From the NCBI RefSeq assembly GCF_035594765.1, contig NC_085842.1, positions 146,705,036 through 146,769,035 on the forward strand: a DNA stretch of 64,000 nt, read 5' to 3'. Numbering within the stretch: position 1 is the stretch's first letter; the number at the start of each line of letters is the position of its first letter. Shown here piece by piece: positions 12,001 through 15,000 of the stretch. Source of the stretch: Anolis carolinensis. Lineage: Eukaryota. The position numbers are program-made.

Positions 12001-15000
12001 GCCGGGAAAACGCTACTGGTTAAGCGGCTGCAGAATATCCGGACTATCAGAAGCGGAGGGGACCTGGCCCAAGCCCGGGGGGAGAGGCTTGGGGCTTGAA
12101 GTGCCGGGAAGAGGCGGGAAAGGGGGGAGGAGGTTTCAGGGCCGGGAGGGTCAGCCTTTGGGCTTTCCTGTCCTTTGGGGCCCTTCTACACTGCCATATA
12201 ATCCAGATGATTTTATCAGATAATCCACATTATCTGTTTTGAACAGGATTATATGAGTCTACACCAGGAACGGGCAAACTTGAGCCCTCCAGGTGTTTTG
12301 GACTTCAATTCCCACCGTTCCTAACAGCCTCAGGCCCCTTCCTTTTCCCCTTAAGCGGCTGAGGAATGGTGGGAGTTGAAGTCCAAAACACCTGGAGGGC
12401 CAAGTTTGCCCGTGCCTAGTCTACACTACCATATAATCCAGTTCAAAGCAGATAGTCTGATTGTATATGGCAGTGTAGAAGGGGCCTTGGACTCACTTGT
12501 GCAGCCCCTTAGCATGGCTAATGCTGGCTGGGGCTTCTGGGGTCCCCCTTGCGGGCAGAGGGGACGTTGGGGTTCGGTGACCAGGCCCCCGTGGGTGCCA
12601 TGCCAACATTCATGGGTGCTCAAGTTCCATTATATACAATAGTGAAGTTGTGTCCCTTCTATAAAAGGGTAAAATAGAGGCTTGTCTTTTGGAGTTTTGA
12701 AAAATTACCTTCAAGATGTGGATAGTTGAACCGGTGGATACAGAGGGCCGGCTGTATAATTTCACCTGCCCAGTCTCACAATACTTGTGGTTCATGCTTG
12801 CCGCTTGGCTGAGGGACGCAAGGATTGCCACACCAGATGGAGATTACCATGTGGGTCAGTTGAGCAAAGTCAAAAGGCAACAGTACCTTCAGAGTGGTGG
12901 CAGAAAAAGAAGCATTTCCCCCATTGAGGAAAGCTGGATAACCCAGACTCTCTCCCAGCCTATTCCAGGGATCCCCTGAGGGCAAGTAAAGGACTTTATG
13001 ACAATGTGAGCCCCAGATCATCCAGGTTTTGAACTTTGGCACCTGTTCTTCATTGTGCATGATGCAGGCTAGTGCTGATTAGGACTGTAGGGTTAAAAAA
13101 TTTTGTGTGTCAGGAGCAGCATGAGAAACTGCAAGTCGCTTCTGGTGTGAGAGAATTGGCCATCTGCAAAGACATTGCCTAGGGGATGCCTGGATGTTTT
13201 CCCATCCTGTGGGAGGCTTCTCTCATGTCCCCACATGAGAAGCTGGGGCTGACATGCTCCCCAGATTTGAACTACCAACCTTTCTAGGGTTAGAAATGGC
13301 AGGCCGCCATGGTCCACTCCCATTCTGCCCATTGAGGCCCAGTATGTGTTCATTCTATAACCCTGAGTCCCTCTCTTTTGTATCACTGCCACCTTCCTTA
13401 ACAATTTTCCTCGCACAGCTTTCCTCTAAGGATGGCGCCAAGGAGCTTGGGGAGCCACCAGCCACACTGCCCACGGTATTGTATTCATTATGGATATTCT
13501 TTCTTTATTTATATCACATCCTTCCCAGGGTGTCTTCTCTTTTGTTCAGTGACAGTATGTTAGTTAATATGGTTCAGTGGCACAGAGCACAAGATTGGGA
13601 ATGTGATGAAAAATGTTGATTTCAAAACACAGTGATGTGTGATTTTTGGTGCGTTTAGCTCAACAGTTTTCCGAGCTATCTGCTTGCTCCAGGTGTGAAA
13701 TTTGCAGGTATTTCATTTGTAAAAGCAGTAATGGGGCAGGCTCTTTAATGAGAAATTTTAACGTTCAATAGATTTTCATTATTTAAGCGATAAAAGTACC
13801 AATGACTCAGCTATTCATTTCAATTGTGTGAGTCTCAGACTCTCAATCAGTGCAATTGGGCAGCAAGAGGAGAGGAGAATTTCATTCTAAAGATAAAACA
13901 AGCCTTCCTGTCCTTCCTGGTTAGACACTACTAACTGAATGTAATGGTTCACAGCGCAAGAGCTAGGGAGGGGAAGACAGCTGAATGTTTTATGGTTCTC
14001 ATTCTTCAAGAGTTCTTCACAAATGGTTTGGTTTCTCTGTCAAGGGTGAACTAGTTGAAATACCTTGCTCTCCAAATAGCACCGGGAATAGTGATAAAAT
14101 GTCTTGCTCCCTCCATGAATGAGAAGGATAAAGAGGGAATTAATATCAGTGCACCAGATTTGCAACCAGAAGATACCTAGTGAAAAATGTATTTTGGCCA
14201 GGCACTAGGCAGCTGTTCATTCAGACTAGAGCCAAGACAAAAAACCTGTTGTTCTTTAGATGTTGCAAAATCCCAATAGGATGATCAGTAGATGGAAATG
14301 ATGGAAGCTGTAGCTCAACAACTTCTGGAGGGCCATAGGTGACTCAATCTTTCAGTAGATAACTGAGCTAATGAACTATTGGTTTGGCTGCTTCTTTTGT
14401 GCTGACTACTTCAGGATGCTAAGAACACAGATTACACATGATTTACTGGGCTGCCACTGACTGGTGTTGGCAGCTGAAGGTGATGTAGACAAATTGCAGA
14501 ATAGAAATTTGTTGCATTTCAGGTGGGCACAAATCTTACAGACCTCTCACTAGGAAAGAAGATTACAGTGCGGGAATTGGGAGGATGCATGGGCCCCATC
14601 TGGTCCAGTTACTACAGTGACTGCTGCTCTGTCCTGGTAGGAGCTCTGTTTGCATATACTGTATATTTCACTCACCCCTCTGTGGTTGGCTCTTTACTTT
14701 GTTTCAGTTAAGCATAAGCACACAGAAACTTTGTGCAGACCTGCTATGTTTTGCACTGGAATTGGTAGGGCTTATGCTTGCCTTACAATACATTGTTTCT
14801 AAGATACTATTCTGTGCAGTGGACTGGATTTTCTTGGATTTTAAAAATCTTTCATGATGTTGTAACTTGTGGTCACTCCAGCAGTGATACTAAGACATTT
14901 GTATAAGCTGCTGTTTTTTATTTTTTTTGTATAATTTTATTAGGTTTTCCTTATACCTGAATAAGAAATAGAGAAGGGAGGGAGGGAGGGAGGGGAAAAT

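What the first reader, a model, noticed from the sequence alone, without database searches (positions are those of the whole stretch)
12035..13416. ARL16 intron 1 is an AT-AC minor-spliceosome intron with an atypical 5' splice site
Seen: exon 1 homology stops at ...KRLQ, where there is no GT. The intron starts ATATCCGG and ends TTCCTTAAC-14 nt ending in AC. Joining 12034 to 13417 gives an unbroken ARL16 frame. Known: U12 introns have RTATCCTT donors, a TTCCTTRAY branch point close to the 3' end, and are often rate-limiting. Inference: +7/+8 are GG instead of TT, weakening U11 pairing, so this may be a weak or regulated minor intron in a ciliary trafficking GTPase. An AG sits 2 nt past the AC (13417-13418), so GT-AG-only predictors would probably mis-annotate the N-terminus. 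The roughly 1.4 kb intron also tolerates three transposon insertions.
Basis: partly seen in the sequence, partly recalled or inferred. Interest (0 to 1): 0.75.

Follow-up and report, generated by a model that had tools for sequence, protein, structure and literature searches.

The report
Known ARL16 minor intron, anole copy
The first intron of the green anole's ARL16 gene is a rare AT-AC "minor spliceosome" intron, the lizard counterpart of one already documented in human ARL16, and its only unusual trait is a start signal that has lost two or three of its usual T's.

Summary
Window 12035-13416 (1382 nt) starts ATATCCGG and ends in AC. TTCCTTAAC (13394-13402) lies 14 nt upstream of that AC and is the only copy of the motif in the 64 kb. 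Splicing 12034 to 13417 keeps the ARL16 frame. No GT-AG intron can keep the conserved VKRLQ residues.

The window is Anolis carolinensis. NCBI's anole ARL16 proteins already read KRLQ|K|LSSKDG across this junction.

The human intron at the same codon position is listed as a U12 AT-AC intron (98 nt, donor ATATCCTT). It is retained in ZRSR2-mutant and CENATAC-depleted cells (De Wolf 2021 datasets). ARL16 is also named as a minor-intron ciliary gene in a 2026 paper. The main claim is therefore correct but already known.

The GG at +7/+8 is real, and no row of the human tables searched carries it. However, database proteins that read through the donor suggest that a non-T at +7 is common in sauropsid ARL16: 24 of 29 such models, mostly birds. 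It looks like a tolerated lineage trait.

Whether the intron is weak or regulated is untested. A dense G-run cluster just downstream of the donor is a possible compensating enhancer.

Interest is low to moderate.

The parts
11947..12034 (+). ARL16 coding exon 1 (MATAAREGAMYLLLGGSGAGKTLLVKRLQ plus the first base of the next codon). A second ATG at 11974 corresponds to the start used in many orthologues.
   Evidence: tblastn of P0121 (A. carolinensis ARL16 X3) matches residues 1-29 letter for letter.
12019..12024 (+). The only nearby GT (CTG|GTTAAG), inside the Val codon. It is a candidate cryptic U2-type donor. Paired with the AG at 13417-13418 it would delete VKRLQK in frame.
   Evidence: A tortoise model, P0016, uses the equivalent donor. 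None of the 115 named models shows GKTLL joined directly to LSS.
12035..12042 (+). U12-type AT donor ATATCCGG. The ATATCC core is intact, but +7/+8 are GG, +9 is A and +10 is C, where the consensus has T's.
   Evidence: Human tables: ATATCCT 196, ATATCCG 4, ATATCCGG 0.
12035..13416 (+). ARL16 intron 1, 1382 nt, with AT-AC termini.
12041..12160 (+). G-run cluster just downstream of the donor: 9 runs of at least 3 G, with G 49% and C 18%. It is a possible intronic enhancer (inference).
   Evidence: The mean of 120-nt windows is 1.13 runs. Only this place and 14931-15090 reach 9.
12178..12491 (.). Nested palindromic transposon-like element. The outer part has 23-nt terminal inverted repeats. The inner hairpin is 12258-12417.
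   Evidence: inverted repeats I1-I4. (copies at 44200-44343, 47827-47970, 48205-48285, 15317-15396 and 33174-33268).
13107..13252 (.). Dispersed repeat (SINE-like) inside the intron.
   Evidence: copies at 35533-35638, 41718-41844 (-) and 53652-53783.
13394..13402 (+). U12 branch-point motif TTCCTTAAC. 14 nt separate it from the 3' junction.
   Evidence: the only match in the window, both strands..
13415..13418 (+). 3' end CAC|AG. AC (13415-13416) ends the intron. The AG (13417-13418) forms the first two bases of exon 2. If that AG were used as acceptor with the AT donor, the frame would hit TAA at 13427-13429.
   Evidence: The frame was read directly from the sequence. An ORF starts at 13430 in that frame.
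13417..13475 (+). ARL16 exon 2 ((K)LSSKDGAKELGEPPATLPT), followed by donor GTATTG.
14523..14636 (+). ARL16 exon 3 (VGTNLTD...CCSVL). The flanking introns are GT-AG.
   Evidence: 100% identical to P0002 and P0121.
15597..15712 (+). ARL16 exon 4 (YMIDAARPTQ...IIFNK plus 2 nt), followed by donor GTAAGA.
   Evidence: Pfam Arf match, E = 0.00041, below the curated cut-off for this piece alone.
15926..16091 (+). ARL16 exon 5, up to the stop codon TAA.
   Evidence: 100% identical over 54 aa to A. sagrei ARL16.

Best explanation
Window 12035-13416 is intron 1 of the green anole (Anolis carolinensis) ARL16 gene. It is a U12-type, AT-AC ('A-type') intron removed by the minor spliceosome, and it is the orthologue of the documented human ARL16 minor intron.

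- The ATATCC core is read by the U11 snRNP proteins and by the two remaining U11 base pairs at +5/+6.
- The consensus branch site TTCCTTAAC is bound by U12 in the same di-snRNP. This cooperative binding carries most of the recognition.
- The AC 15 nt downstream of the second A of the motif (the branch A itself was not mapped) is chosen as the 3' end, giving KRLQ|K|LSSKDG.

The T's at +7 to +9 are lost (GGA here). This loss appears to be shared, at least at +7, with many sauropsid ARL16 genes. It probably makes the donor intrinsically weaker than the human one. The G-run cluster at 12041-12160 may partly offset this (inference).

Failure to splice gives a stop at 12097-12099, that is, no functional GTPase.
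For: **In the sequence.**
- ATATCC sits at the exact end of homology. The only TTCCTTAAC in the window lies 14 nt before an AC. The frame is kept.
- No GT lies between 12019 and the in-frame stop.
- The other three introns are GT-AG.

**Protein models.**
- A. carolinensis P0121 and P0122 and A. sagrei P0002 read KRLQKLSSKDG, with exon-by-exon identity to the window.
- 40 of 115 named relatives have the same junction, K|L or Q|L.

**Orthology.**
- De Wolf 2021 Datasets EV1-EV4 list the human ARL16 intron as AT-AC U12: 98 nt, donor ATATCCTT after ...CTGCAGG, branch motif GTCCTTGAC, 3' end CGCAC|AG. That is the same codon position and phase.
- The last seven letters across the 3' junction, CGCAC|AG, are the same as here.

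**Minor-spliceosome dependence in human.**
- In ZRSR2-mutant cells mean PSI rises from 0.087 to 0.42, padj 1.8e-7 (row, column headings).
- ARL16 is named among minor-intron genes with intron retention after ZCRB1 loss.

**Synteny.** HGS (Hrs_helical domain) lies upstream on the other strand. From recall, this is the same arrangement as the human locus.

**Branch site in relatives.** 10 of 14 models that read through the 3' end carry S-L-T or V-L-N just before the junction. Both are compatible with TCCTTAAC, but this is inference from degenerate codons.
Against: - No transcript data for the anole could be examined. The junction rests on predicted protein models and conservation.
- The donor departs from consensus at +7 to +10. 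In the human tables 0 rows have ATATCCGG and only 4 string hits have ATATCCG.
- The branch-to-3' distance (14 nt after the motif) is longer than the stated optimum of 11-13 nt.
- The last 40 nt are 72.5% pyrimidine and end CAG, so a U2-type acceptor at 13418 is conceivable.
- An in-frame GT-AG alternative exists (12019-13418).
- No position-weight score (intronIC or MIDB) could be computed here.
Confidence: 0.9

Rival explanations
1. The region is mainly spliced by the major spliceosome. It would use the GT in the Val codon (12019) and the AG at 13417-13418, giving an ARL16 that lacks VKRLQK.
For: - The pair is in frame.
- A tortoise model, P0016, uses the equivalent donor: GKTLL|LPAQ|LCSKDG.
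- The 3' end is fairly pyrimidine-rich and ends CAG.
- Cryptic U2 sites near U12 donors are a known route (passage).
Against: - 0 of 115 named models join GKTLL directly to LSS.
- All 3 anole models that contain exon 1 keep VKRLQK.
- VKRLQ or RRLR is conserved across sauropsids.
- CTG|GTTAAG matches the U2 donor consensus poorly at +3, +5 and +6. The consensus is recalled.
Confidence: 0.04
2. The minor spliceosome uses the AT donor but the AG two bases further on (AT-AG, 12035-13418) as a frequent product. This would give a frameshifted, quickly terminated message that lowers ARL16 output.
For: - The AG abuts the AC.
- AT-AG minor introns exist in the human tables, for example XPO4, MYO7A and NUP210.
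- The same CAC|AG arrangement occurs in human ARL16.
Against: - AT-AG combinations are described as disfavoured (passage).
- The frame hits TAA at 13427-13429, read directly from the sequence, so this cannot be the productive form.
- No model shows it.
Confidence: 0.03
3. The GG at +7/+8 is an assembly or sequencing error, and the real donor is the canonical ATATCCTT.
For: The region is GC-rich and G-run-rich. Such regions are harder to sequence (general knowledge).
Against: - Read-through models from other sauropsids give Arg after N/H-I, compatible with ATATCCGN, in 19 of 29 cases. These include a skink and many birds.
- A double T-to-G error is unlikely.
- No N or gap is nearby.
Confidence: 0.03

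Closest known systems
Human ARL16 minor intron (chr17:81683595-81683692, NM_001040025; De Wolf et al. 2021, EMBO J, Datasets EV1-EV4)
   Same: - Same gene.
- Same position, after the RLQ codons plus one base (phase 1).
- AT-AC termini and an ATATCC core.
- A branch motif of the TCCTTRAC type close to the 3' end.
- The same CGCAC|AG letters across the 3' junction.
   Different: | Feature | Human | Anole |
|---|---|---|
| Length | 98 nt | 1382 nt, inflated by repeats |
| +7/+8 | TT | GG |
| Branch motif | GTCCTTGAC | TTCCTTAAC |
| Motif to 3' end | 10 nt | 14 nt |
| Last exon base | G | A |
Human AT-AC minor introns with G at +7: CIAO2B (ATATCCGCC) and MYO7A (ATATCCGTG) in the same datasets
   Same: - An A-type donor with an intact ATATCC core and a non-T at +7. 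In CIAO2B +8 is also non-T.
- They are still scored and listed as U12 introns, with donor scores of 0.81 and 0.84 against 0.90 for human ARL16.
   Different: - They are different genes, and none has GG.
- In the CIAO2B row shown, the fold change was 0 and the adjusted P value was 1. I did not see the column headings of that file.
'Minor-like' introns of the MIDB classification (Olthof et al. 2024, NAR)
   Same: A reduced match to the minor consensus, with the overall minor-type motifs retained (passages).
   Different: - Minor-like introns are enriched for G at -1 or AG at -2/-1 and often lack the CC of the branch motif. Here -2/-1 is GA and the branch motif is a perfect consensus.

Membership tests
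U12-type (minor spliceosome) intron, AT-AC subtype | Donor core /ATATCC at the exon-intron boundary | tested here: met
   12035-12040 reads ATATCC, exactly where ARL16 homology ends.
U12-type (minor spliceosome) intron, AT-AC subtype | Donor positions +7 to +9 are T (consensus RTATCCTTT), the part that pairs with the U11 5' end (+5 to +10) | tested here: not met
   +7 to +10 read GGAC. Human tables: ATATCCTT 173 of 196 ATATCCT; ATATCCGG 0. Pairing positions come from a passage in PMC11874965.
U12-type (minor spliceosome) intron, AT-AC subtype | Branch-point motif TTCCTTRAY | tested here: met
   TTCCTTAAC at 13394-13402 is the only copy in 64 kb on both strands.
U12-type (minor spliceosome) intron, AT-AC subtype | Short branch-site to 3' splice-site distance (optimum 11-13 nt) | tested here: inconclusive
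   14 nt lie between the motif and the junction, which is 15 nt from the second A. This is short, as in U12 introns, but above the optimum quoted in PMC3584512.
U12-type (minor spliceosome) intron, AT-AC subtype | 3' terminal AC paired with a 5' AT | tested here: met
   AC at 13415-13416. Only this acceptor keeps the frame with the AT donor.
U12-type (minor spliceosome) intron, AT-AC subtype | No distinct polypyrimidine tract | tested here: inconclusive
   10 of the 14 nt after the motif are pyrimidines, and the last 40 nt are 72.5% pyrimidine. No threshold was applied.
U12-type (minor spliceosome) intron, AT-AC subtype | Removal depends on U11/U12/U4atac/U6atac | not testable with these tools
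   Shown only for the human orthologue: retention with ZRSR2 mutation and CENATAC or ZCRB1 loss.
Orthologue of the human ARL16 minor intron | Same gene, same codon position and phase, conserved neighbourhood | tested here: met
   - ARL16 identity.
- The position after RLQ plus 1 nt, compared by eye with the human row printed.
- HGS lies upstream on the opposite strand. The human arrangement is recalled.
Orthologue of the human ARL16 minor intron | The junction is used in real transcripts of this species | not testable with these tools
   Only NCBI protein models P0121 and P0122 (A. carolinensis) and P0002 (A. sagrei) carry it. No RNA-seq was at hand.

The most novel reading that the evidence does not exclude
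In sauropsids the ARL16 minor intron has repeatedly lost the T tract (+7 to +9) that pairs with U11 and U6atac. This is seen directly in the anole and is inferred for many birds and a skink from proteins that read through the donor.

The AT-AC junction nevertheless stays conserved. The intron would then be a natural 'minimal' U12 donor, recognised almost wholly through ATATCC, a consensus branch site and perhaps a downstream G-run enhancer.

Its low intrinsic efficiency could make ARL16, a ciliary-traffic GTPase, unusually sensitive to minor-spliceosome activity in these lineages.

One possible cause is GC-biased change in a promoter-proximal CpG island. This is speculation from recall.
Probability: 0.2. 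Interest if true: 0.45.

Novelty: already known. Interest (0 to 1): 0.25.

Why it matters
ARL16 is needed for ciliary traffic. From the library I saw only a reference title for this (Dewees 2022). Its human minor intron already serves as a read-out of minor-spliceosome defects.

The anole copy adds nothing of kind. It does show that the junction is about as old as amniotes. It also shows that the donor can lose its U11-pairing T's while the junction stays conserved and annotated.

That is of modest use for two purposes:
- setting thresholds in minor-intron classifiers;
- gene annotation, since 29 of 115 named ARL16 relatives in the protein collection read through this donor and 46 lack the exon-1 end.

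Tried and rejected
- **Rfam scan of the whole window.** 0 matches at gathering score. No snRNA or other RNA gene bears on the finding.
- **Canonical U12 donors elsewhere.** RTATCCTT gives 6 matches against 4.94 expected. None lies inside ARL16 (nearest: 11004, upstream of its start codon, and 22666), so there is no alternative canonical U12 donor for exon 1.
- **Pfam on single exons.** Exons 4 and 5 give weak Arf matches below the curated cut-off. Exon 3 gives none. Exon 1 gives only a P-loop-like ABC_tran match. The exons are too short one by one, so identity came from the protein searches instead.
- **Supplements of the ZCRB1 paper.** The 2 files held contain no ARL16.
- **Literature searches.**
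  - 'Anolis' with 'U12-type': 0 papers.
  - 'Anolis' with 'minor intron': 1 paper, seen in the listing only and not read.
  - 'ARL16' with 'minor intron' or 'U12': 2 and 3 papers, none on reptiles or birds.
- **Primary papers on base pairing.** The U11 and U6atac papers (PMC1369475, PMC1369652) are not held. A review passage was used instead.
- **Left undone.**
  - No position-weight score could be computed, because no intronIC or MIDB model is available here.
  - No vertebrate genomes or RNA-seq are available.
  - Genome contigs holds only bacteria and archaea, so it was not used.
  - The joined (spliced) ARL16 model was not built or searched. All searches were exon by exon or on contiguous window DNA.
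Full report
**What is there.** The window has no N. On the + strand it carries a five-exon ARL16 gene:

| Exon | Coordinates |
|---|---|
| 1 | 11947-12034 |
| 2 | 13417-13475 |
| 3 | 14523-14636 |
| 4 | 15597-15712 |
| 5 | 15926-16091 |

Together these give 180 codons before the stop. Introns 2-4 are ordinary GT-AG: GTATTG...CAG, GTAGGA...CAG and GTAAGA...TAG.

Intron 1 (12035-13416, 1382 nt) begins ATATCCGGACTA. 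It ends TTCCTTAAC (13394-13402) plus the 14 nt AATTTTCCTCGCAC, and an AG follows immediately.

**Is it more than chance?**
- TTCCTTAAC occurs once in the 64 kb on both strands (0.87 expected), and that copy is the one 14 nt before the junction.
- ATATCC occurs 39 times on both strands (26.7 expected). One of these sits exactly at the base where ARL16 homology ends.
- Between 12000 and 12130 there are only two GT. One is at 12019 inside the Val codon of LLVKRLQ. The other is at 12101, beyond the in-frame stop at 12097-12099.
- So no GT-AG intron can keep the conserved VKRLQ and an open frame. The AT-AC pair does.

**Whose gene is it?** I searched exon by exon and on contiguous window DNA only. 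The joined (spliced) model was not built or searched.
- Exon 5 (54 aa) found 171 relatives with E ≤ 0.001 among 173 candidates, of which the best 120 are listed. The best are 100% identical ARL16 of Anolis sagrei.
- Exon 1 plus its contiguous read-through found Anolis carolinensis ARL16 isoforms X3 and X7 (P0121, P0122).
- Exon 1 of those isoforms equals the window letter for letter, whereas A. sagrei differs at two residues.
- The window is therefore green anole.
- All three anole models that contain exon 1 read KRLQ-K-LSSKDG, which is the 12034^13417 junction.
- HGS (Hrs_helical domain, minus strand, 2202-3038) lies upstream on the other strand. From recall this is the human arrangement.

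**What is already known.**
- The supplementary datasets of De Wolf et al. 2021 (PMC8280824) list a human ARL16 intron of 98 nt as a U12 AT-AC intron. I saw passages of the main text, text searches of the supplements, and part 1 of Dataset EV2.
- That intron has donor ATATCCTT directly after ...CTG CAG G, branch motif GTCCTTGAC and 3' end CGCAC|AG. This is the same codon position and phase, with the same seven letters across the 3' junction as in the anole.
- In ZRSR2-mutant cells its mean PSI rises from 0.087 to 0.42, with adjusted P of 1.8e-7 (row, column headings).
- It is also in the list of introns in Dataset EV4, which the text cites for the overlap of introns affected by CENATAC depletion and in patient cells.
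- A 2026 paper on ZCRB1 (PMC13216214, passages only) names ARL16 among cilium-associated minor-intron genes with intron retention.
- The main claim, that ARL16 intron 1 is an AT-AC minor intron, is therefore right and already established. The anole annotation already uses the junction.

**The atypical donor.**
- A review passage (PMC11874965) states that positions -1 to +4 of a minor donor are read by SNRNP48, SNRNP35 and U11 stem-loop III. It states that +5 to +10 pair with the U11 5' end.
- The anole keeps C at +5 and +6 but has GGAC at +7 to +10.
- In the human tables of De Wolf (Datasets EV1 and EV3, string counts per file) the counts are:

| String | Count |
|---|---|
| ATATCCT | 196 |
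| ATATCCTT | 173 |
| ATATCCG | 4 |
| ATATCCA | 2 |
| ATATCCC | 2 |
| ATATCCGG | 0 |

- The ATATCCG rows shown were CIAO2B and MYO7A. For ATATCCA and ATATCCC, one hit of each pair lay in the 3'-end column and not in the donor.
- These are string counts. Rows can repeat an intron.
CIAO2B (ATATCCGCC) is a human precedent for a non-T at both +7 and +8.

**Is the GG a lineage trait?** Vertebrate genomes were not available, so I used an indirect read-out.
- Of the 120 listed relatives, 115 carry a name. The 5 unnamed ones were left out. The split is:

| Class | Count |
|---|---|
| Spliced junction (K|L or Q|L) | 40 |
| Run straight through the donor | 29 |
| Lack a recognisable exon-1 end | 46 |

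- In the 29 read-through models the residues after RLQ/RLR are N/H-I-X. X translates +6 to +8.
- X is Arg in 19, Leu in 5, Pro in 3, His in 1 and Gln in 1.
  - The Arg group is 15 Neoaves, 3 galliforms and the skink Lerista.
  - The Leu group is two snakes, a turtle and two sparrows.
- If the ATATCC core is kept, Arg means G at +7 and Leu means T.
- This is inference from degenerate codons. Ile may be ATH and Arg may be AGR. The birds are not independent samples.
- With that caveat, a non-T at +7 seems common in sauropsid ARL16, while mammals (human), snakes and a turtle keep T.
- This argues against an assembly error. It also argues that the junction survives without these pairs.

**The branch site in relatives.** 14 models read through the 3' end.
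- 4 have S-L-T just before the junction: A. sagrei, Varanus, Podarcis and Leptosomus.
- 6 birds have V-L-N just before the junction.
- Both are compatible with TCCTTAAC.
- 4 are uninformative.

**Strength and regulation.**
- Two features are less favourable than in human: the donor, and the spacer of 14 nt after the motif against 10 in human. The quoted optimum is 11-13 nt (PMC3584512 passage).
- One feature is better: the branch motif is the full consensus.
- A-type introns are reported to be spliced less efficiently in human cells (passages).
- Directly after the donor, 12041-12160 holds 9 runs of at least 3 G, with G 49% and C 18%. The window mean per 120 nt is 1.13. Only this place and 14931-15090 in intron 3 reach 9.
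[quoted passage not shown] It cites a paper, of which I saw only the title, on hnRNP H and U11 binding.
- That the G-runs act as an enhancer is my inference and was not tested.
- Retention gives a stop at 12097-12099. Use of the AG at 13417-13418 with the AT donor gives TAA at 13427-13429, read from the sequence. Both outcomes abolish the protein.

**Rivals.**
- The only in-frame GT-AG solution, 12019-13418, removes VKRLQK.
- A tortoise model (P0016) does use the equivalent Val-codon GT, but with an acceptor further upstream. Cryptic U2-type use is therefore plausible as a minor product.
- However, 0 of 115 named models join GKTLL to LSS, and the anole models keep VKRLQK.

**Transposons.**
- The intron is 14 times longer than the human one.
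- 12178-12491 is a nested palindromic element (inverted repeats I1-I4). Its outer and inner parts each have copies elsewhere in the window.
- 13107-13252 is a dispersed repeat with three other copies.
The families could not be named because no repeat library was available.

**Mis-annotation.**
29 of 115 models read through the donor and 46 lack the exon-1 end.
- It is not borne out for NCBI's anole models.

**Verdict.** This is a correctly spotted, real AT-AC minor intron. It is already known for the gene and already annotated in this species. Its donor variant is rare by human standards but seems tolerated widely in sauropsids. Whether the intron is weak or regulated remains open and needs RNA-seq and minigene tests.

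**What stayed unchecked.** Anole transcripts, genome alignments of other species, classifier scores, and the bioRxiv supplements of the ZCRB1 preprint (closed) were not examined.

Noticed in passing
window 16751-16846 and 21195-21266 (+): Alternative 3' exons of ARL16. The tails of A. carolinensis isoforms X3 and X7 (P0121, P0122) match here (84% and 100% in tblastn) in place of exon 5. This would replace the C-terminal part of the GTPase fold.
   Followed up: partly
window 2202-3038 (-): Two ORFs match the Pfam Hrs_helical domain (E = 3e-11 and 1.4e-19). HGS therefore lies upstream of ARL16 on the opposite strand. A CpG-rich stretch at about 11600-12100 (CpG observed/expected 0.9-1.07) lies at the ARL16 start.
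   Followed up: partly
window 27508-27741 (-): An ORF matches the start of the Pfam TMC domain (E = 3e-11). A TMC-family gene lies downstream on the minus strand.
   Followed up: no
window 19674-19974: A tandem repeat of a 94-nt unit, 3.2 copies, 86% matches. It lies downstream of ARL16 exon 5, between the alternative 3' exons.
   Followed up: no
window 14931-15090 (+), ARL16 intron 3: A second G-run-rich, low-complexity stretch. It is the only other place in the window with at least 9 G-runs per 120 nt.
   Followed up: no
protein collection, not the window: Of 115 named ARL16 relatives, 29 read through the AT donor and 46 lack the exon-1 end. The read-through models are mostly bird models from large genome projects. 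The minor intron is a systematic trap for annotation.
   Followed up: yes
P0016 (Gopherus flavomarginatus isoform X2), compared with window 12019: A tortoise model splices from the GT of the Val codon to an acceptor inside the end of the intron (GKTLL|LPAQ|LCSKDG). This looks like a U2-type alternative that overlaps the minor intron.
   Followed up: partly
window 2193-2200 and 11004-11011 (+): Two exact ATATCCTT strings lie on the + strand, outside any gene model examined. The total for RTATCCTT (6) is near the chance expectation (4.94).
   Followed up: no
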